This document shows, in pieces, positions 6,676 through 45,413 of a DNA stretch of 46,300 bases. The notes under the pieces were generated by a model. That model saw only the letters and a program-made list of their open reading frames with translations, had not been told where the DNA came from and did not search any database. The stretch's first letter is position 1. Each line of letters starts with the position of its first letter. The position numbers and the translations under genes are program-made. The DNA lies in IMG/VR virus record IMGVR_UViG_3300019890_000007, positions 1 to 46,300 of that record; one strand, written 5' to 3'. This DNA comes from a virus. Lineage: Duplodnaviria; Caudoviricetes.

Positions 6676-6910
6676 AGTATTTTTTGAGCGTCTAGCTTAC
6701 TTACTCATGACTGACAAGAGATCCTTAGAGACATCCTTAAATAACACCGTAAATATATCTGATCCAGAGTTTTTACATGTCTTATCTCAATTAAAAGGTA
6801 AGATAAATACACTAGAGCAAGTACTAAATATAGAAGAGTTTCTATATTACGACACAATCCAAGAGGAGATAGACGATGTTCACAGTAGTAGGTCCGAGAA
6901 TCAGAGTTAA
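6614..6910 (+). CDS. hypothetical protein; start may be the downstream Met (MSLETW)
   Basis: ORF track; lies between portal and groES. Confidence 0.6.
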   Translation: MQTHKISKMSLETWVENPISKVFFERLAYLLMTDKRSLETSLNNTVNISDPEFLHVLSQLKGKINTLEQVLNIEEFLYYDTIQEEIDDVHSSRSENQS

Positions 6911-7184
6911 AATTGACGAGAGGAAAGAAGAGAAATCATCAGGTGGTATTATCATGGTAGATCCTAGTAAGCATGTGTGTGATGCGGACATAGGAGAAGT
7001 AGTAGGAATTGGTACTACAGCATATAAGAACATGGATGATGAACAACCTTGGTGCAAAATAGGAGATAAAGTCCTGTTCCAACGCCATGCAGGTAAGGAA
7101 GATCCTACAGATCCAACAGGGTTACACAGATACTTAAAAGATATAGACGTAATTGCAGTAGATGCAGGAGAAAGTGATGAGTAA
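6876..7184 (+). CDS. groES: co-chaperonin GroES-like protein
   Basis: EEKSSGGIIM mobile loop, GEVVGIG, KIGDKVLF and DIDVIAV match Cpn10. Confidence 0.9.
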   Translation: MFTVVGPRIRVKIDERKEEKSSGGIIMVDPSKHVCDADIGEVVGIGTTAYKNMDDEQPWCKIGDKVLFQRHAGKEDPTDPTGLHRYLKDIDVIAVDAGESDE

Positions 7185-25002: not shown

Positions 25003-25212
25003 CTATTTACCTCTGGCTAATAGCTTCTGTACATCACGGTCAATCTCTGTAATCTGATTACTAAGACTAGTCACTTGCCATGTCAGAGACTTCACACTGT
25101 CTTGTAAGTCAGTGACCATCTTAATAGTCATAGACTGCAGCATATCAGGAAGGACTAACTTAATGTCGGATGGAAAAGCAGCTTTAGCTTGTGCATCTAA
25201 ATATTCTTGCAT
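25003..25212 (-). CDS. hypothetical coiled-coil protein
   Basis: ORF track; RBS GAGGA. Confidence 0.6.
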   Translation of the reverse strand: MQEYLDAQAKAAFPSDIKLVLPDMLQSMTIKMVTDLQDSVKSLTWQVTSLSNQITEIDRDVQKLLARGK

Positions 25213-27974: not shown

Positions 27975-28219
27975 TAGTAAGCATCTCCATTCTCTTTAAT
28001 TTTTAAGTCCTCGTAAGGACGGGCTATACGAGCATAGAACTCTAGTTTAGCTCCTTCTAAAGCACCTATTATATCATTAATGGTTTGATAAGATAATCCT
28101 TTGGTAATACTATATTGAATTAGTGAATGGGTAATAAAGTAATTTAACTCTCCTGCATTTATAGGAACACTAGTAATAGTCTTTAAATCAGAACGCAACT
28201 CTTGTTTAATATATGGCAT
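27974..28219 (-). CDS. conserved phage protein
   Basis: MPYIKQ...GELNY...PYEDLKIKENGD pattern common in phages. Confidence 0.75.
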   Translation of the reverse strand: MPYIKQELRSDLKTITSVPINAGELNYFITHSLIQYSITKGLSYQTINDIIGALEGAKLEFYARIARPYEDLKIKENGDAY

Positions 28220-29046
28220 TATATTACCCTCATTTCACGAAGTCTTTTACGGCAACTCAACCACTTATTAAAATCGTTAAATGACTGAATACCATAACTC
28301 AGACAATCTATGATAGTGTTGATACTCGCACTACATTGCATCAATACACCAAAACTAATCTTTAACCCAAAGTATAGAGGCGCTAATATCAGATAAGGTA
28401 CTATGACAGTAATCTGACTATAAAACGATTGAAAGTAAGACAGATACTTAGTAGTCTTGAACATATTATAATTATTTCTATAAACTTTTGAGTAATTCAA
28501 CTTACTCAAGACTTGTCTGAACCCAGCTTCTAAATTCTGATTGACATAATTAAGGTTGATCAAAGGTCTTGCAATATGAGCTGCTAATCCTGTACCGATT
28601 ATAGCATATAGAATAGGAATAGTCAAGTAAGTCCAGTGTAATTGATACACTAAAATGCTAGAGTACGTAATCAAGACTACTATGTTTCTTATACCGCCTG
28701 ATAACAAGCTTATCTTAAGCTGATTATAAAGGAAGCAATCCTCTTGTATTCGTTGTTGATAATTCTCTACCTTATGGACTTGCTTAAGAGCTTTCCTAGT
28801 CATCCTAGTCCTGAGTATAAGGCTGACATAGTTACCTAGATACTGACCGTACCCACTGACTAGACAAGCAGCTAATGCGGCTAGACTGAAGTAGACTAGA
28901 TATAGACTGAACATCTTGTAGTTATGAGTATTGACAGCCTGCCAGAAACTTTCACGCCATACGCCGATATAGCCTACTAGACCACATTCTATACAGATAG
29001 TCGCAACTAATAGTAATACACTTCGTCTGAGTCTAGGTAAAATCAT
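28219..29046 (-). CDS. SbmA/BacA-like (ABC transmembrane domain type) membrane protein
   Basis: multiple TM helices; W...FW.A, QRIQED, EAGFR (EAA-like) and VPYLILAPLYF...ISFGVLMQ motifs. Confidence 0.8.
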   Translation of the reverse strand: MILPRLRRSVLLLVATICIECGLVGYIGVWRESFWQAVNTHNYKMFSLYLVYFSLAALAACLVSGYGQYLGNYVSLILRTRMTRKALKQVHKVENYQQRIQEDCFLYNQLKISLLSGGIRNIVVLITYSSILVYQLHWTYLTIPILYAIIGTGLAAHIARPLINLNYVNQNLEAGFRQVLSKLNYSKVYRNNYNMFKTTKYLSYFQSFYSQITVIVPYLILAPLYFGLKISFGVLMQCSASINTIIDCLSYGIQSFNDFNKWLSCRKRLREMRVI

Positions 29047-31900: not shown

Positions 31901-32682
31901 AACTCCCCCTCTTTACGTCTTAGCCATACAAGTTGGCCTCTGTCTGTTAAGATTTCTCGAACTTTTTCTTCGATACTCGTGCTCGAATCTTCCTCGGGCT
32001 CAAGAGTAGATTTAATAACTGAGTGAACAATTCTACGGAACTCGTTTTCGGTAGCAGCTTCTTTGAGTTCTTTTTCAGTTTCTTTTTGCCGCCAACCTTT
32101 TTTAATTCTCGGAATGCCATCTGCTATATCTCCTGTTAGTATTTGTAAATAAAAGTTTCGGAGAGCTTCAATTTCGTCTACGTAATAAATCTCCTTAGTC
32201 ACATAATTCCCGTGCCATCCTGGTATGTTATTAAAATCCTTGTCTACGCTCCAGACTATAGAATTACGTATGTCTGGATGAAACTCATAATTATTCTCTC
32301 GACAATGAGCTATACTACACGCATCATCTGCCTCTTGTCCGTCTACTGTCGTTACTCTGTCATCCAGCATCAAGTAAGATCTTAACTCATCATACCAATA
32401 CGGACGTCTAGCATCTTTCCTATTTGCTTTATATTCCTTGAATATAGCATGTCTAAAATTACCCTTACCTGTTAAAAACCCTCTATACGCTTTCGTATCC
32501 GACACCTGTAGACAATAATCTATCATATGGTTCATATTGTATATAGCATGACTCATAGGCTCTACTTCTAAAATATCCATGTCCCTGTTAAGACTCTCGG
32601 TACTAAAACCACATCTATAAACAATAGGATCTAAGTCTATGATAGCAGTCTTAAAGCTGTATATTTCTCTGGTATTTAACAT
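31891..32682 (-). CDS. 5'-3' exonuclease (T7 gp6-like)
   Basis: IIDLD, YKANR, EADD, SVDKD and GDIADGIP motifs. Confidence 0.92.
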   Translation of the reverse strand: MLNTREIYSFKTAIIDLDPIVYRCGFSTESLNRDMDILEVEPMSHAIYNMNHMIDYCLQVSDTKAYRGFLTGKGNFRHAIFKEYKANRKDARRPYWYDELRSYLMLDDRVTTVDGQEADDACSIAHCRENNYEFHPDIRNSIVWSVDKDFNNIPGWHGNYVTKEIYYVDEIEALRNFYLQILTGDIADGIPRIKKGWRQKETEKELKEAATENEFRRIVHSVIKSTLEPEEDSSTSIEEKVREILTDRGQLVWLRRKEGELWT

Positions 32683-33844
32683 GAAGCTCCTCTGTCTCGC
32701 CCATTTTATCTCTGACTATCTGACTAGTAATGACTACACTGCTTTCCTTGCACTCAAATTGAAAATCAAACAGTACTTTATCAACAATGCTCTTCAATCC
32801 TCGTGCACCTGTTTTCAATTTAAAAGCCTGTCTAGCAATTTCTTCCAGACCAGTGCTACTAAAATGCAATCTAGTCCCGTCCATGAAAAATAAGTGCTCC
32901 ATCTGTTTGACTATACTATCTTCGCCATGTGTCAATATCTCTCTCAAGTCCACTTCTGTCAGATCATCCAAGACAGTCTTAGAAGGAATTCTTCCTATGA
33001 ACTCTGATATTAGACCGAAGGATTCTAAATCTTCAGTAGTAACGTCCTTTAGTCGGTCGTTACCTTCTAACTTGTCTACCTTTCCTCCGAACCCTATCGA
33101 AGTATTATTTAACCTCTTGTTTACTATATCCGACAAGCCATTAAAAGAACCTGCGCAAATAAACAATATGTTACGAGTATTGACAGTGATTCGATTACTC
33201 TCTGCATAAGGATTTCTTCCTAGAGATAGAGACACAGTGCTTCCTTCTAGTATCTTCAATAAACCTCTCTGGACACCACTAGATGAACTAGTATGACTAT
33301 CTGATCCCAGAGCCAATTTATCAATCTCATCAATAAATACTATACCACGTTCCATTTTCCTTACGTCTTTTCCTGATGCAGCATATAAATCTAACAACAC
33401 CGTCTCAGGATCTTCACCTGACCAACCCGTTTGGGTCAGCGTAGTAGCGTCCGCCATGCCTAGAGGCAGAGAAGTAATCTCTGCTAATTCTTTTACCAGG
33501 AGAGTTTTACCCGTCCCTGTACTCCCGATTAACAAGACATTACTCTTGTCTAACTTCTTAGAGCTAGTCAACCGCTTCATATGATTGACTAGAGCTATAG
33601 CTAACGTCTTTCTGGCCGTGTCCTGACCGCGTACGTTCAGTCCTAGTTTAGTATAAATATCTTTAGTAGTATAACCCACCGTCTCTGAGAAGGTCTTAGG
33701 CTTTACTAAAGCTTCTGGATGTCTTTGCAACATTAAGTCAGCACTACAGTCAAGGCAGATCATATAAAGCTTATGCTTATCCTCACCTTCAACGAGTCGT
33801 ACTGACTTTGATTCATGTCTACCACAAAGATCACAACTTGCCAT
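32651..33844 (-). CDS. clpX: ClpX AAA+ unfoldase
   Basis: N-terminal C4 zinc domain, Walker A GSTGTGKT, Walker B IVFIDEIDK, IGF loop, sensor 2 TGARGL. Confidence 0.93.
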   Translation of the reverse strand: MASCDLCGRHESKSVRLVEGEDKHKLYMICLDCSADLMLQRHPEALVKPKTFSETVGYTTKDIYTKLGLNVRGQDTARKTLAIALVNHMKRLTSSKKLDKSNVLLIGSTGTGKTLLVKELAEITSLPLGMADATTLTQTGWSGEDPETVLLDLYAASGKDVRKMERGIVFIDEIDKLALGSDSHTSSSSGVQRGLLKILEGSTVSLSLGRNPYAESNRITVNTRNILFICAGSFNGLSDIVNKRLNNTSIGFGGKVDKLEGNDRLKDVTTEDLESFGLISEFIGRIPSKTVLDDLTEVDLREILTHGEDSIVKQMEHLFFMDGTRLHFSSTGLEEIARQAFKLKTGARGLKSIVDKVLFDFQFECKESSVVITSQIVRDKMGETEELHVKYQRNIQL

Positions 33845-34550: not shown

Positions 34551-35390
34551 TCAAATAACTAATTTTTCCAGCTCTCCCCATGAAACTCCCTTTTTGAACT
34601 CAACTCCAAGTGGCACTCTGATTTCAATATCAAACTTCTCTTTCAAGAATTGTACGACAGAGTATAACTCTTTTTGAATAAAAATGCAAGCGTTTTCTAC
34701 AAATTTGCGTCTACAATCAAACAAAATACTATCATGTATGGTATTGACCATAAGAATCTTATCTCTGTGAGGAAGAAGTTTCCTCCACAATATACCCATT
34801 GCCATAGGATGTAAATCCGCTGTAGCAAATCCTTGAATCTTGTAATTCATTCCTTCTGAGTATTTAAACCCTCCTGGAGTATATATCCTATTCTCAGCGC
34901 AGAAGCTGCTAATCTTTTCGGGGTAATTCCTGAAGAACCACTTTCTGCCTGTCAAGCCTGTATAGAAGCTCTCTAGGCGATTATCTTCGACCTGGTACGC
35001 ATTAGCATCAAGTTCTAGCATAAGAGCGTCAGACCACTCCCTTGAGGCTTTAAACGTGTCCCAGAATACATCATAAGCCTTTTTAGCTATATCTTCAGGT
35101 ATCCCATACTGCTGAACAAGGTTCCAGTCTGTACCGCCGTATATAAGATTGAAGTTGCCCGATTTCAGCATCTGTCTTTCTTCGGTTGAAACCTCAGTCG
35201 CAGGTTTATTCAAGACTCGTCCACCTAGATGCTTGTGAATGTCTATACCTGAGTTAAGTAAATCCTCTAAGACAGGATCTCTAGTATGAGTGACCCACGC
35301 AATAATCTCAAGAGCCGTCCAGTCAGCCTCTATTATTAGACCGTCTGTACCAAATCGGGATGTGAAGTGGTTTTTGACTAATGACGACAT
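34551..35390 (-). CDS. polA: family A DNA polymerase, C-terminal fragment (motifs A, B, C)
   Basis: IEADWTALE, RQMLKSGNFNLIYG, NYKIQG and TIHDSILFD; RBS GGAGG. Confidence 0.93.
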   Translation of the reverse strand: MSSLVKNHFTSRFGTDGLIIEADWTALEIIAWVTHTRDPVLEDLLNSGIDIHKHLGGRVLNKPATEVSTEERQMLKSGNFNLIYGGTDWNLVQQYGIPEDIAKKAYDVFWDTFKASREWSDALMLELDANAYQVEDNRLESFYTGLTGRKWFFRNYPEKISSFCAENRIYTPGGFKYSEGMNYKIQGFATADLHPMAMGILWRKLLPHRDKILMVNTIHDSILFDCRRKFVENACIFIQKELYSVVQFLKEKFDIEIRVPLGVEFKKGVSWGELEKLVI

Positions 35391-35548
35391 TTATTCCTCC
35401 AAGAATAGACTAAACCAGATAATCCTAATAAATCCTTTTCTGTAATTTTAGCAGCTTGATTTAATTTTAACGCGGGACCGTATTCTATACCATCAAAAGT
35501 ATCTCTTATTGCTAAATTTTCCCCGCTATGTTCAAATTTAAATACCGT
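35378..35548 (-). CDS. 56-codon ORF with ACG start inside the second polymerase gap
   Basis: GAGG-TTTAT-ACG then open frame VFKFEHSGENL...CRH-stop. Confidence 0.4.
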   Translation of the reverse strand, partial: TVFKFEHSGENLAIRDTFDGIEYGPALKLNQAAKITEKDLLGLSGLVYSWRNKCRH

Positions 35549-35557
35549 ATAAACCTC

Positions 35558-36013
35558 TTAAGAAGATCTAATTAGATTTTGTAGGTTTGGCTTATTACTT
35601 GAAAGCCTACCTGTATCCGTACTGACATGATTCAGATTCCCGTGAATACAACTGTCGTGATCCATCATGAGCTCTTCAAATCCTATATAGTAAGTGGAAA
35701 TCTCTTTCTGTAAACCCCGCAATTCTAATAGCAACTTAGCCACTTGTCCTGCTGGATGTTTAATTTTCTTAGCTATTCGACTCAGATGCTTATCGTTAAG
35801 ACTTATATTACCCTTGTCTGTCAACATATCTTTAGTAGGCTTGAGTCCCAATCCTTTTATATGACAGCATATCTCTTTCCATTGATATTTAGGCTGTCCT
35901 TTATTCGTGCCTGTCTTATATTCGCCTATTTTAATTTTCGCTCGATCTTTTAGATGCCCGCCAAAGAATAAAACACGTATCTGAGGAATACTATGAGGAT
36001 TAAATTCTATCAT
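35558..36013 (-). CDS. polA: family A DNA polymerase, middle (thumb/palm) fragment
   Basis: FNPHSIPQ, LLLELRGLQK..STY and TDTGRLSSNKPNLQN; RBS AGGAG. Confidence 0.92.
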   Translation of the reverse strand: MIEFNPHSIPQIRVLFFGGHLKDRAKIKIGEYKTGTNKGQPKYQWKEICCHIKGLGLKPTKDMLTDKGNISLNDKHLSRIAKKIKHPAGQVAKLLLELRGLQKEISTYYIGFEELMMDHDSCIHGNLNHVSTDTGRLSSNKPNLQNLIRSS

Positions 36014-36024
36014 TGCCAATACTC

Positions 36025-36189
36025 CTATTCTGAGAACAAAATATCTCTGTATTTTCTAATCGTTTCATTAGACTCTTGTACTGCCCTTATTCCAAACTCT
36101 TTTTCTAAATTATCCCCAAAATCTTCAGTAGCATGCCCCAATAAAGCTTTTAAAATCTGACGTATTTGATCATCTGTTAATTTATTCAT
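36025..36189 (-). CDS. 54-aa hypothetical protein inside the first polymerase gap
   Basis: GGAG-ATAAT-ATG; MNKLTDDQIRQ...FSE. Confidence 0.6.
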   Translation of the reverse strand: MNKLTDDQIRQILKALLGHATEDFGDNLEKEFGIRAVQESNETIRKYRDILFSE

Positions 36190-36190
36190 A

Positions 36191-36907
36191 TTATCTCCAA
36201 TATTGGCTACATAATTTCTGAAATTGTTTAGCTTTATGCTCATATTCTATCTGTAAATCTAACTTATTCTTAGTCAATATCTCCTTATTGACGTACAATC
36301 CATTAGCCTCCATTTCAGTAGTAGAAAGTAACGCGTCCATTTCATGAGCTATAAGACCATACATCCCTGTTAATTTGGCTGACTTTACTTGCTGTAAGGC
36401 TATCTTTTCGGTGTCTAAGACATCGTTCTTTACGTCAAATAACAAATCTTCTATGTCCATATACTGAGTCATGAGTCCTGCTTTGAGTCCTCCCTCAATT
36501 TTTTTAGTTCTTTCAGTACAGCCGTAGATTCTTGTTGCGATGTCGCGTAAAGAGGAATACTTGTGTCTCTGACCAGAGAGGATATACTCTGCCAATTGGG
36601 TGTCCCATATGCGTAATCCGTTTTTAAACGCCTCTTGTAACTCATTATTTCTCCATGTATGAAGTAAATCAAACTTAATGTTATGTCCTATTAAGACGGT
36701 CACACCATGTAACCACCCTGTAGGCATATAGTCTTGTGCGTGTGCGAATAATGTGTAATCTTCACCAGGTATCTTCTCACTATCGGGCGTATATACACGT
36801 TCGTCTGAGTATTTTAACCCGACTGCCAGTATCTCATTAGCCCAAGGACTGCCCTTGCGTCCTTTGAATTCTGTTGATCCCGTTTCCAAATCGAAAACTA
36901 AATACAT
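36191..36907 (-). CDS. polA: family A DNA polymerase, N-terminal 3'-5' exonuclease fragment
   Basis: FDLETG, GHNIKFD, WDTQLAEY, KNDV and EMEANGLYVN motifs. Confidence 0.92.
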   Translation of the reverse strand: MYLVFDLETGSTEFKGRKGSPWANEILAVGLKYSDERVYTPDSEKIPGEDYTLFAHAQDYMPTGWLHGVTVLIGHNIKFDLLHTWRNNELQEAFKNGLRIWDTQLAEYILSGQRHKYSSLRDIATRIYGCTERTKKIEGGLKAGLMTQYMDIEDLLFDVKNDVLDTEKIALQQVKSAKLTGMYGLIAHEMDALLSTTEMEANGLYVNKEILTKNKLDLQIEYEHKAKQFQKLCSQYWR

Positions 36908-39322: not shown

Positions 39323-39900
39323 AGACCTTCAAAATAAGAATCGAAAAAGTGACGTTCTTGATGTGTAGTGCTAGGTTGTAGGCCTCTTAAGAAGATGTTG
39401 TCATCTGAAGAAGTGCTGATAGTATTTAACCAACCAAAGCTGACAAACATCAGAGTGCATAATAGTAATATTAATAGACGGTGGTAAAAGCTCATAAAAA
39501 TAACCTCTCTTTAGCATCTGTATCTGAGCGAGTGGACTCGAACAGCTCTTTTGCAATAGAGTCCATAGCTATTTGTAAAACAAAAAACTTATTCTTATCT
39601 AAATCGGATAAAGAATGTCTATTACTTATAAGATCATGTCTTACTTTCTCTAAGTCATATTTCATAAATCATCCTCATAACACATAGTGATAACAAGAGC
39701 TATTAATAATAAAGTGGCTAAACACAAAGTTAAAATAGTCAGGATAATCATTACTCCTCCTCATCACGTAACGCATTAGTATCTTCAAGATTTGAGACTA
39801 TCTCTCCTATACACTCCATGCAGAGTTCTTGATGCTTATCAAAGTCAAGATCGGAGGAAGTTAATACAACATCGCAAGCAGCACATCTCATACGCGTCTC

Positions 39901-40878: not shown

Positions 40879-41076
40879 TTACTCATCCTGTGACTCCCAA
40901 ATAAGAGCTATAAAATAGATTATAGCAGTAAGCCACAATATGAAAAGCGTAGCCATCCCACTATAACATAATACTATCAATGAGGCAGGATTAAGGAAAA
41001 CATAAGCTGCCCAGCCTATACCTGCAAGTATAGTACAGATACACATTACTACAAGCGCTCTTAAATGTATATTCAT
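40879..41076 (-). CDS. small two-TM membrane protein
   Basis: hydrophobic; ATGA overlap with the upstream ORF. Confidence 0.65.
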   Translation of the reverse strand: MNIHLRALVVMCICTILAGIGWAAYVFLNPASLIVLCYSGMATLFILWLTAIIYFIALIWESQDE

Positions 41077-41243
41077 AATATCACCGTATATTTAACATTA
41101 GATAAATACTCTTTAAGAGCCTTTTTCAGTCTGCGTACAAAAGATCCCTTGCCTTTCTTAGGTATGTGTACTTTAGCTTTAGGTGCATTCTTATTGAGTC
41201 TACGTGACTTTAGTCGTTTAGGAATCACTTTATATTTACTCAT
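41073..41243 (-). CDS. ArfA-like (alternative ribosome rescue factor) basic peptide
   Basis: KVHIPKKGKGSFVRR resembles the ArfA KKGKGSY.RK motif; RBS AGGAGA before MSKYKV. Confidence 0.6.
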   Translation of the reverse strand: MSKYKVIPKRLKSRRLNKNAPKAKVHIPKKGKGSFVRRLKKALKEYLSNVKYTVIL

Positions 41244-41305
41244 AGCTTGTCTCCTAGTAAGAGGACGCTCTAACATTACAAATAAAGCTGGATTAAGTAA
41301 CATAA

Positions 41306-41887
41306 TCACCTCTTAGTCAATATCTCATCAATTAACCCATAATCCTTAGCTTCTTCTGCTGTCATGAAGTTATCTCTGTCTGTATCCCTTTCTATGACGT
41401 ATAAAGGCTGCCCTGTCAATTCCGATAGATGTCTGTTCAACCTGTCTTTCAACTTAGCCATATGAGCAGCTTGAATAGCTATGTCAGAAGCCTGTCCATG
41501 TGACCCACCAGATGGTTGATGTATCATGATCTCAGTATTAGGAAGTGCGAACCTCTTACCCTTGGCACCTGCTGCTAATAGGAATGACCCCATACTGCAC
41601 GCATGCCCAGATGCTATGGTGACTACATCAGGTCTGATGAACTGCATAGTATCATAGATAGCCATACCAGCAGTGATGTGTCCACCTGGCGAGTTAATGT
41701 ACAATGATATATCCTTGTCAGGATTCTCAGACTCAAGGAATAATAACTGAGCTGTGACCAGATGAGACGTGACTTCATCAATACCGCCATTAATGAATAT
41801 GATTCGATCTTTTAACAGACGAGAGAATATATCATATGATCTCTCACCCTTAGCTGATTGCTCAACTACTATCGGTACTAGACTCAT
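41306..41887 (-). CDS. clpP: ATP-dependent Clp protease proteolytic subunit
   Basis: [37 protein letters not shown] and [11 protein letters not shown]. Confidence 0.97.
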
Positions 41888-43288: not shown

Positions 43289-43316
43289 AGAATAGCACAT
43301 CTCTGGAATATGTCAA
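43289..43316 (-). promoter_or_regulatory. leftward sigma70-type promoter
   Basis: TTGACA-N11-TGTGC-TATTCT. Confidence 0.75.
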
Positions 43317-43370
43317 GTCTTTGTCAAGTATTTTTAAAAATATATATTATTAATAATATTTAATATACAC

Positions 43371-43398
43371 TTGACAAATCAGGATTATGTGCTATAGT
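43371..43398 (+). promoter_or_regulatory. rightward sigma70-type promoter 1
   Basis: TTGACA-N11-TGTGC-TATAGT. Confidence 0.8.
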
Positions 43399-43400
43399 TA

Positions 43401-43642
43401 TTAGACCATTAAGAGAGGATGGCTTGGGATAGATAAACGTGTTTATGTGGCGTGCACTGGCTTTCATAGTAGATGACGAATGTGACGGTACTCCTATCGT
43501 CAGAGAAGGGTTCAGGAATCCCTAGGATTAAAACCTACACGATAAGATCAGCACAGGAGTGCTAGAGAGTGTGGTATATCCACAATGCTCTCAAGAGTAT
43601 CTATGTCTAAATTTATGAGTCGGTGACAGATTGTCTCCGACT
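43401..43642 (+). ncRNA. candidate structured ncRNA A (unknown family)
   Basis: follows a promoter; no long ORF; end-to-end pairing plus serial hairpins. Confidence 0.55.
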
Positions 43643-43661
43643 AAAAAGATTAGAATATGAC

Positions 43662-43689
43662 TTGACAATTGATATGTATGTGCTATAGT
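43662..43689 (+). promoter_or_regulatory. rightward sigma70-type promoter 2
   Basis: TTGACA-N11-TGTGC-TATAGT. Confidence 0.8.
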
Positions 43690-43737
43690 AAGGATGCTAG
43701 AGCTCGAAAAGACAGCTAGGCAGCACATATAAAGCTT

Positions 43738-43964
43738 CTACCTATTCTGATCGAAGAGCGTCTGATTGATAATACGTGGCAAGATAGGACTTGCATGAGC
43801 AACCTATCCCATATCAGCCATACGTAATGCAGCGATGCGAGGTGTGAAAGTTGCTCATTAGTCGTAAGATTAAAAGTAGCACATCATGCTAACCAGACAG
43901 GTGCGGGTGAGTGAGGATTGGAAATCAGACAAGTCCCGCTAGCACTAATTATTAAGATAGGTAG
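43738..43964 (+). ncRNA. candidate pseudoknotted ncRNA B (unknown family)
   Basis: closing stem CTACCTAT/ATAGGTAG and several 6-9-bp long-range complementarities. Confidence 0.65.
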
Positions 43965-43980
43965 TTGATAGGAGATTGAT

Positions 43981-44214
43981 ATGACTTTATTAATAGCGAG
44001 TCTAGGCCTAATAGGTGCAGTCTCAGGGTTCACGAGTGGTTATTTATTCTACGGATACAGACAGTCTCTATTATTGAAGAATATACTCAAAAGTTATAAA
44101 GCATTGGGTTATGAGGTATTAGACGAAATTAATCCTCATACTCAAGCTAGGACTATCAAGATAAGTGAGAAGCCTGAGCAAGAGCCTCTTCATCTTAATA
44201 AGGTATTACACTAA
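43981..44214 (+). CDS. small membrane-anchored protein
   Basis: RBS AGGAG; N-terminal TM segment. Confidence 0.7.
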   Translation: MTLLIASLGLIGAVSGFTSGYLFYGYRQSLLLKNILKSYKALGYEVLDEINPHTQARTIKISEKPEQEPLHLNKVLH

Positions 44215-44408
44215 TGCGCTTACACATGAGTTTCTATGATTGGTATAGGTGGACTGTGTGCCCACCTCTCTATCCTACTGATGAAGAGATTCAGAATACT
44301 CTAGAAAGCTCTGTAAATAGAGATTTTCATAAGAACTTAGTCAGAAGATATGACTTATATGTACAAGATATAGTTAAAGAATTGAATAAACCTGAGAGAG
44401 AACTTTGA
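44214..44408 (+). CDS. hypothetical protein
   Basis: TAATG coupling to the upstream gene. Confidence 0.6.
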   Translation: MRLHMSFYDWYRWTVCPPLYPTDEEIQNTLESSVNRDFHKNLVRRYDLYVQDIVKELNKPEREL

Positions 44409-44507
44409 GTTTGACTCTACATACCCTCGGGCTATCAAAGAATGGGTAGAAGAAACCCTTACTAAAGACGACTCGTTAAATAAATCTTAAATATTTATTA
44501 AAAAGAC

Positions 44508-44535
44508 TTGACAAATAGAGAATCTGTGCTATAAT
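44508..44535 (+). promoter_or_regulatory. rightward sigma70-type promoter 3, consensus hexamers
   Basis: TTGACA-N11-TGTGC-TATAAT. Confidence 0.85.
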
Positions 44536-44634
44536 ACATAGATCATACAGACGAATGTCACAACAGGAAGAAATTCTTTTCTAAATACCTGGATTGTATT
44601 GATAATGAAAGAAGCTGTCAGATAATGACAGGAT

Positions 44635-44856
44635 TATACAGATTTTAAATCCTACTTAATGTGAAACCTGACGTCATGCGTCAGTCAGCCACTGGCAAGC
44701 AGTAGCTTAAGCGGGATACTGATCCTAAGAGTCTGACAAGGAGTCTATCGAGAGATACAACATCTCTACGACTTACCAGACCTAGATCGCTGAGACTCGT
44801 TTGAAAGCTGTTGATCCTTCTCAGCATTAGCCCTTAAATGGGTATTTTATTGTATA
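44635..44856 (+). ncRNA. candidate structured ncRNA C in the tRNA leader (unknown family)
   Basis: closing TATACA/TGTATA stem enclosing about five hairpins; no long ORF. Confidence 0.55.
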
Positions 44857-44897
44857 GAGTCTCACGCATGCTATTGAACCGTGAGACAAATTGTTAT

Positions 44898-44971
44898 TGC
44901 GAGATGGTGAAATGGTATCATTCGAGGCTCATAACCTCAGGTCACGGGTTCAAATCCCGTTCTCGCTTCCA
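44898..44971 (+). tRNA. tRNA with CAT anticodon (Met-type)
   Basis: acceptor TGCGAGA/TCTCGCT, D arm GTGA/TCAT, anticodon loop CTCATAA, T arm ACGGG-TTCAAAT-CCCGT, encoded CCA. Confidence 0.93.
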
Positions 44972-45131
44972 AATCAATCAGATAGACCACCTACGCCATT
45001 GCATACCGTCTAATAAACGGCTGGTCTAAGCTAATATGGCGCACCATTGGTATCAAGCTCAGTTGATCAGGAAGATACTAGACTTGACGGGCAGCAGAAT
45101 CCTGGGGTATTGAGTACTGCATGGACATGAG

Positions 45132-45413
45132 ATGAGCAAGAGTCATAAAAAGGTCAGGTACTCTCATAATTGCTCAGTCATTCACGGAGCTCAGACTAAC
45201 TACAACTTGGCTGAGAGACGTAAACGAAGACGTGACATTAAGAGAATCTTAAGACACGCTAGCCCTGATAAAGATATAATATTCCCGCCAGACAGACAGT
45301 ACGCTAATCCATGGTACAGCCCTGGTGATGGTGGGCACATAGTCTCGGATGAGACAAGAGATTGGTTGATAAGACAAGGCATATATAGATACGACAGATA
45401 CATGGCTAAATAA
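45132..45413 (+). CDS. basic Arg/Lys-rich hypothetical protein
   Basis: ORF track; MSKSHKK...RRKRRR...NPW..PGDG. Confidence 0.65.
   Translation: MSKSHKKVRYSHNCSVIHGAQTNYNLAERRKRRRDIKRILRHASPDKDIIFPPDRQYANPWYSPGDGGHIVSDETRDWLIRQGIYRYDRYMAK

What the first reader, a model, noticed from the sequence alone, without database searches (positions are those of the whole stretch)
43738..43964. Candidate new multi-pseudoknot RNA with its own promoter (ncRNA B)
Seen: an ORF-free ~230-nt segment downstream of the promoter at 43662-43689. It is closed by CTACCTAT (43738-45) pairing ATAGGTAG (43957-64). Nested stems are TACGT-GGC/GCC-AT-ACGTA (43773-826) and GATAGG/CCTATC (43783-808). The 14-nt loop of the latter is complementary to two distant segments: ATGAGCAA(C) with GTTGCTCAT (43850-58), and (GG)ACTT with AAGT(CC) (43931-36). 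GTCTGATT (43760-67) pairs AATCAGAC (43923-30), which lies inside the GCGGG/CCCGC stem. There is also a GNRA-capped hairpin TAGTC-GTAA-GATTA and a TAGCA/TGCTA hairpin. Inference: two or three crossing helices in this space suggest a ribozyme-like or scaffold fold. I cannot match it to tmRNA, RNase P, group I introns or riboswitches that I know. Its 3' end lies just upstream of the RBS of 43981, so a cis-regulatory role is also possible.
Basis: partly seen in the sequence, partly recalled or inferred. Interest (0 to 1): 0.85.

Follow-up and report, generated by a model that had tools for sequence, protein, structure and literature searches.

The report
Uncatalogued knotted RNA in orphan phage
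An uncultured 46-kb phage carries, behind a strong promoter, a gene-free 230-280-base stretch predicted to fold into a compact knotted RNA that matches no catalogued RNA family; it likely works as a stable early RNA, but its knots, expression and job are untested.

Summary
The helices are in the sequence as described, behind an 11/12 sigma-70 promoter. Long perfect helices exceed shuffles modestly (p 0.002-0.05 depending on borders); total pseudoknot-allowing packing does not (6-7 of 100 shuffles as good). A refined model pairs 152 of 227 bases, with two GNRA hairpins, a zero-linker 3' three-way junction and three crossing helices. One crossing helix shrinks to 4 bp, and the computed optimum is a different, rod-like fold. 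No Rfam family matches. Near-identical copies occur in 5 of 7 laid freshwater runs, plus one diverged fragment, but no diverged full-length homolog could be fetched, so covariation is untested. A related phage has a promoter-driven, end-closed tract with the same 3' junction (post hoc, no model score). Best reading: an uncatalogued ornate phage RNA, likely a stable trans-acting scaffold or decoy. A leader switch for the next gene remains open.

The parts
43662..43689 (+). sigma-70-type promoter with extended -10; one of three look-alike promoters (43371, 43662, 44508)
   Evidence: 11 of 12 consensus matches; three-copy repeat family D1
43696..43737 (+). predicted 5' leader (start inferred from the -10 box), weakly folded
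   Evidence: fold -6.9 kcal/mol for 43696-43745
43738..43964 (+). candidate ornate RNA core, closed by P1 43738-46/43956-64 stacked on P2 43766-73/43948-55
   Evidence: 152 of 227 bases paired in the model
43774..43825 (+). P3a/P3b arm with asymmetric internal loop and 14-nt terminal loop 43789-43802
43795..43858 (+). predicted crossing helix PK1, 43795-802/43851-58 (8-9 bp, duplex -11.7 kcal/mol)
   Evidence: no covariation data
43760..43930 (+). predicted crossing helix PK3, 43760-65/43925-30 (6-8 bp)
   Evidence: no covariation data
43789..43934 (+). predicted crossing helix PK2, 43789-92/43931-34 (4 bp; 7 bp only if two stems open)
43828..43885 (+). GNRA hairpin P4 (43828-39) and P5 (43841-46/43880-85) enclosing the PK1 strand and GNRA hairpin P6 (43859-72)
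43887..43944 (+). 3' three-way junction P7/P8/P9 with 27-nt loop; the indels seen in relatives fall in this loop
43967..43975 (+). second copy of the P1 3'-strand hexamer overlapping the ribosome-binding site of ORF 43981
43981..44214 (+). downstream 77-aa ORF with hydrophobic N terminus, no known family

Best explanation
A host-polymerase promoter likely drives an RNA starting near 43696 whose 227-base core is predicted to fold into a compact, end-closed, loop-kissed structure that would act in trans as a stable scaffold or decoy during infection. Shown: the promoter match, the ORF-free tract, the complementary segments, their mutual compatibility, and no match in Rfam. Inferred: transcription; that the knotted fold rather than the rod-like optimum forms; release from the longer read-through transcript, since there is no terminator; and the role. 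I commit to binding of a host translation or RNA-defence factor, because the same genome carries tRNA-Met, an ArfA-like ORF, ClpX, ClpP and an RNA ligase, and because ROOL and GOLLD, phage RNAs near tRNAs, are the nearest described kind.
For: Promoter 11/12. Long-helix excess p 0.002-0.05. Compatible model pairing 67% of bases with contiguous stacked helices. Two GNRA-capped stems on + and none on -. Pieces of the tract in 5 of 7 laid freshwater runs; of 8 listed variant sites, 4 lie in the unpaired 3' loop, 2 turn A-U into G-U, and none lies in a crossing helix (tables were cut and the sites are few). One diverged contig (8 differences in 41 nt over 43903-43943) continues through a different linker into the same 8-nt P1 3' strand. 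Related phage L201 has a promoter-driven ORF-free tract of about 290 nt closed by a 10-bp stem with the same 3' junction layout in different letters; 1 of 600 shuffles gives such a hit. Gene context. ROOL/GOLLD context: passages of 10.1101/2024.12.08.627333.
Against: No diverged full-length homolog, so no covariation. The nested part of the knotted model scores -42.7 against -64.9 kcal/mol for the rod-like optimum, and most of its helices have low probability in pseudoknot-free folding. Packing score not clearly above shuffles. Three other places in the genome reach the same long-helix count. One variant breaks the closing pair of the P6 GNRA hairpin and one removes the outer P1 base. Within run X4 the tract is about as diverged as the next ORF (4 substitutions plus 2 gaps in 228 versus 5 in 151). 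The L201 junction descriptor was written after seeing both sequences, it hits 41 places in 174 kb of strands (11 with a closing stem), and the covariance model gives that tract only 6.4 bits. No terminator. No direct evidence for any partner.
Confidence: 0.4

Rival explanations
1. The tract is a long structured 5' leader that controls ORF 43981 and 44214. The P1 5' strand would slip from its partner at 43956-61 to the repeat at 43967-72 and hide the ribosome-binding site.
For: It is the nearest promoter for these ORFs and no terminator intervenes. The P1 hexamer recurs 11 nt downstream over the RBS. Forcing that pairing costs 2.8 kcal/mol and drops mean RBS accessibility from 0.63 to 0.08.
Against: The alternative helix has 6 bp against 9 and near-zero probability unforced. 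The repeat partly follows from the RBS itself. A strong promoter plus 285 nt for an orphan 77-aa gene is out of proportion (inference). Three contigs stop matching at 43945, so the 3' context may vary.
Confidence: 0.2
2. It is a self-cleaving or processing ribozyme that cuts the read-through early transcript. Its middle has a pistol-like layout: hairpin loop paired to a strand that lies between a stem and a hairpin.
For: Nested pseudoknots and multi-way junctions are typical of ribozymes (passage of PMC5737381). Terminator-less transcripts from tandem promoters would need processing (inference).
Against: Pistol model gives no match at E<=10; no ribozyme family in the E-value scan. The conserved G-C-G after the pseudoknot strand (recalled, from no call) is missing: PK1 abuts P6 directly.
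Confidence: 0.1
3. It folds as the computed rod and works like 6S RNA, a promoter mimic that binds host RNA polymerase.
For: The minimum-energy fold is an end-closed rod with z -2.89. The phage depends on sigma-70-type promoters, and no RNA polymerase appeared among the 50 ORFs scanned.
Against: No 6S match (that model passed its cut-off in only 4 of 14 control genomes, so this is weak). The rod has many small loops and a one-sided 19-nt bulge, not a large central bubble. It leaves the 9-bp and 8-bp perfect complements unexplained.
Confidence: 0.1
4. It is an ordinary untranslated spacer or decayed gene, and the helices are the chance tail picked out by eye.
For: p rises to 0.017-0.054 once the border-setting stem is removed, and other genome windows match the count. 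Packing z about -1.5. No clear extra conservation against the next ORF.
Against: Helices are compatible and abut without linkers; GNRA loops are strand-biased. A diverged fragment keeps both the P9 region and the P1 strand across a changed linker.
Confidence: 0.15
5. It is a degenerate tmRNA or tRNA mimic feeding the phage's ClpXP. P9 resembles a T-arm with a 21-nt insertion in its loop (resemblance recalled, from no call).
For: ClpX, ClpP and an ArfA-like ORF in the genome.
Against: ARAGORN and the tmRNA model find nothing here. No CCA end, a 5-bp acceptor-like stem only, and no reading frame ending in an ssrA-like tag.
Confidence: 0.05

Closest known systems
raiA motif RNA (Rfam RF03072; PMC12968392, passages read)
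   Same: Similar size. Segmented closing stem, two-part P3 arm with asymmetric internal loop whose terminal loop pairs with a linker that follows a hairpin, and a 3' three-way junction.
   Different: No counterpart of raiA P4 or its PK2 in my model; two other crossing helices end in the 3' loop instead. No model match at E<=10. raiA is described from Firmicutes and Actinobacteria (PMC5737381 passage).
ROOL and GOLLD ornate phage RNAs (10.1101/2024.12.08.627333, passages read)
   Same: Phage-borne, near a tRNA, predicted multiple pseudoknots or kissing loops, no known function.
   Different: About a third to a quarter of their length (659 nt and over 800 nt in the passages); no Rfam match; oligomer formation untested.
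Pistol ribozyme (RF02679)
   Same: Order of elements in 43783-43885 resembles the pistol layout (recalled).
   Different: No model match; recalled catalytic linker absent.
6S RNA (RF00013)
   Same: End-closed rod in the minimum-energy fold.
   Different: No match; no large central bubble.

Membership tests
raiA motif | match to covariance model RF03072 | tested here: not met
   0 candidates at E<=10; no control genome passed the cut-off, so there was no positive control
raiA motif | P3b loop pairs with the linker after P5 (PK1) | tested here: inconclusive
   an analogous helix exists but homology is not shown
raiA motif | P4 joined directly to P3a, and PK2 to the P4-P1c linker | tested here: not met
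   no such helix in the inventory or model against the description
tmRNA | tRNA-like domain with acceptor stem and CCA; model match | tested here: not met
   (9 of 14 controls over cut-off)
tmRNA | tag reading frame ending in alanine-rich signal | tested here: not met
   three-frame translation
RNase P RNA type A | model match RF00010 | tested here: not met
   (8 of 14 controls over cut-off)
group I intron | catalytic core match RF00028 and an interrupted gene | tested here: not met
   only hit 8.1 bits at 39775-39805; tract interrupts no ORF
pistol ribozyme | model match RF02679 | tested here: not met
   6 candidates scored, 0 at E<=10; no control passed the cut-off
self-cleaving ribozymes | site-specific self-cleavage | not testable with these tools
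   needs an in vitro assay
6S RNA | model match RF00013 | tested here: inconclusive
   no match, but only 4 of 14 controls passed the cut-off
ROOL / GOLLD | Rfam model match and length of 600 nt or more | tested here: not met
   all-family scans; core is 227 nt
ornate phage ncRNA (informal kind) | covariation-supported stems and pseudoknots | tested here: inconclusive
   only near-identical or fragmentary relatives
ornate phage ncRNA (informal kind) | discrete, abundant transcript | not testable with these tools
   no RNA run was available to lay

The most novel reading that the evidence does not exclude
The founding member of a new class of triple-knotted phage RNA, shared in fold with the L201 tract, that belongs to a phage kit for taking over host ribosome rescue and proteolysis (tRNA-Met, ArfA-like protein, ClpXP, RNA ligase) and acts there as an RNA-only decoy or catalyst.
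Probability: 0.12. Interest if true: 0.85.

Novelty: new variant of a known kind. Interest (0 to 1): 0.45.

Why it matters
Ornate phage RNAs such as ROOL and GOLLD have solved structures but no function. A 227-nt example is small enough to probe, mutate helix by helix and image. It sits in a phage lineage (about 49 helicase relatives at 43% identity or more) whose two fetchable members also carry long ORF-free tracts in the same region, and beside captured translation-rescue and protease genes that suggest testable partners. Until covariation or expression is shown it is a candidate, one of many such uncatalogued phage RNAs.

Tried and rejected
Rfam: whole window at gathering score gave 1 hit, the tRNA; 43300-45200 at E<=10 gave 5 hits, none on the tract. 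blastn: no match in 50,697 phage records or 72,556 plasmid records; 0 of 400 genomes of one gammaproteobacterial MAG's class (1 more not scored); 0 of 5 and 0 of 2 handles. IMG/VR patterns: the PK1 gap pattern returned 120 loci from 15 of 64 parts, none with an nhmmer hit below E 9.6; a 17-mer gave 0; two 3'-domain patterns gave 11 and 26 loci, all judged chance. L259/L283 looked best but lies in a tail-gene region and lacks the P1 partner; L272 is inside an 841-aa ORF. GTDB pattern gave 0. Neighbour-protein fetches: ClpP brought mostly unrelated loci; single-protein helicase and terminase scans gave 0; the helicase alignment gave two near-complete relatives, L201 and L202, and none from GTDB. 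A one-sequence covariance model found only the query. No antisense match above 12 nt to the phage genome, which is chance level. No RNA holder listed; this is no evidence either way. Paper search for four 13-14-nt motifs found 1 irrelevant plant paper. PMC10690425 supplements 3-6 hold none of the motifs; files 1, 2 and three large files were unreadable and may hold the alignments. The representative-protein search for ORF 43981 never left the queue. The packing test used stacking energies typed from recall and a greedy search, so it is crude.

Full report
Setting. The window is a whole virus record of 46,300 bases (96% complete). It has podophage-type head and tail genes on the + strand and T7-like replication genes on the - strand. 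The best terminase matches among cultured phages are under 38% identical. The finding lies just right of the point where the two arms diverge. Three look-alike sigma-70 promoters (43371, 43662, 44508) each precede a tract without long ORFs; the third runs into tRNA-Met at 44898. The genome also encodes ClpX, ClpP, an RNA ligase, an SbmA/BacA protein, GroES and an ORF with a weak ArfA match (Pfam E 0.0017; Atlas 0.86, a lead only).

Observation. Making the helices mutually compatible changes the picture. P1 (9 bp) stacks on an unnoticed P2 (43766-73/43948-55). P2 closes a junction carrying the P3 arm, a GNRA hairpin, a P5 arm that encloses the PK1 strand and a second GNRA hairpin, and a 3' three-way junction whose helices abut without linkers. 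Three crossing helices remain: PK1 8 bp, PK3 6 bp and PK2 only 4 bp. In this model 152 of 227 bases pair.

Chance. Perfect helices of 8 bp or more number 3 against 0.25 in 5000 shuffles (p 0.002). The value is 0.017 without P1, which set the borders, and 0.011 with borders set by promoter and ORF. Three other places in the genome reach the same count. The nested fold has z -2.89 on + and -1.90 on -, and GNRA-capped stems of 4 bp or more occur twice on + and never on -. Against this, a crude packing score allowing pseudoknots was matched by 6 and 7 of 100 shuffles, and the pseudoknot-free optimum is a rod 22 kcal/mol below the nested part of my model. The three crossing duplexes sum to about 18 kcal/mol before loop costs. 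The sequence alone therefore supports structure moderately and does not choose between the folds.

Known families. Rfam gives nothing on the tract at gathering score or at E<=10. Single-family searches for raiA, tmRNA, 6S, pistol, RNase P and group I introns are also empty there; the raiA and pistol runs had no control over cut-off. raiA is the closest layout by the passages read (PMC12968392), but its P4 and PK2 have no counterpart. ROOL and GOLLD share the setting, not the size (10.1101/2024.12.08.627333, passages). Four paper searches showed no description of this RNA.

Relatives. Eleven DNA runs hold part of 43300-45200; two may be the source. Of 7 others laid, 5 have contigs on the tract. 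The 8 listed variant sites in the core are 4 in the unpaired 3' loop, 2 A-U to G-U changes in P1 and P2, loss of the outer P1 base, and one break of the P6 closing pair; none falls in a crossing helix. The tables were cut and some sites are alternative placements of one event, so this is consistent with the model but not a test. One contig in X5 matches 43903-43943 with 8 differences, runs through a different linker and then shows the same 8-nt P1 3' strand; I read it as a diverged homolog fragment. Another X5 contig has a different, still hairpin-forming sequence 5' of 43877, which could mean that the PK1 strand varies. Three contigs stop matching at 43945. No diverged full-length copy came from any pattern, BLAST or model search.

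Syntenic phages. Helicase relatives are numerous in protein space, but only L201 (58%) and L202 (50%) could be fetched with their flanks. Both have long ORF-free tracts in the same region. L201 6767-6478 (-) follows a promoter-like site, is closed by a 10-bp stem, and has the same 3' junction order in different letters. A descriptor for that junction plus closing stem hits 1 of 600 shuffles of the L201 tract and none of the four other tracts tried. The descriptor was written after seeing both sequences, it fires 41 times in 174 kb (11 with a closing stem), local alignment is at chance (z -0.4), and the model score is 6.4 bits. I count it as a possible structural relative, not a homolog.

Mechanism. 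Shown: promoter match, tract, complements, compatibility, no catalogue match. Inferred: early, strong transcription by host polymerase; folding into the knotted form; trimming from the read-through transcript; action in trans as a stable scaffold or decoy for a host translation or RNA-defence factor (0.40). The partner is a guess from gene content. Rivals: leader switch for ORF 43981, for which a slipped P1 pairing can hide the RBS at a cost of 2.8 kcal/mol (0.20); chance pairing (0.15); ribozyme (0.10); 6S-like rod (0.10); tmRNA or tRNA mimic (0.05). There is no antisense target in the phage, and ORF 43981 has no relative beyond its own cluster.

Verdict. Probably a real structured RNA (about 0.8), uncatalogued, of the known kind 'ornate phage RNA of unknown function'. 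Earlier scan notes list several other such families in other phages (unchecked by me), which lowers the surprise. Its pseudoknots are predictions from one sequence. Interest 0.45.

Noticed in passing
window 34551-36907 (-): The DNA polymerase is in three ORFs with short ORFs or read-on frames in the two gaps. L202 has it whole (683-residue frame) and L201 has it in two pieces, broken near the first break. Split enzyme, nested genes or ribosomal bypass are open.
   Followed up: partly
window 32651-33844 and 41306-41887, 41073-41309 (-): ClpX, ClpP and an ArfA-like ORF in a 46-kb phage, with GroES (6876-7184), SbmA/BacA (28219-29046), a trypsin-like protease and an RNA ligase. L201 and L202 also match the ClpP.
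   Followed up: partly
window 43405-43655 (+): ORF-free tract A behind promoter 43371, with a possible loop-loop pairing (43487-95/43555-63); its 3' part resembles an L201 tract near 5970-5925 (-), z 6.1. No long-helix excess.
   Followed up: partly
window 44542-44897 (+): ORF-free tract C of about 350 nt between the 12/12 promoter and tRNA-Met; weak DUF3800-VIII hit, 28 bits against a cut-off of 40. Its first 40 nt match contigs in four freshwater runs that all continue with one different sequence.
   Followed up: no
window 25126-25150 (+), L201 4281 (-), L202 2037 (-): A small hairpin motif followed by a purine-rich hexamer recurs in all three phages; in the window it lies between annotated ORFs on the opposite strand.
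   Followed up: partly
L202 700-190 (-) and 2520-1680 (-): ORF-poor tracts of about 500 and 800 nt with many stems and no Rfam match at gathering score; candidates for further large RNAs.
   Followed up: partly
L201 6767-6478 (-): Promoter-driven tract of about 290 nt closed by a 10-bp stem, no Rfam match at E<=5; possible structural relative of this finding.
   Followed up: partly
window 43289-43398: Back-to-back divergent promoters within a 72-nt AT-rich inverted repeat at the strand switch.
   Followed up: no
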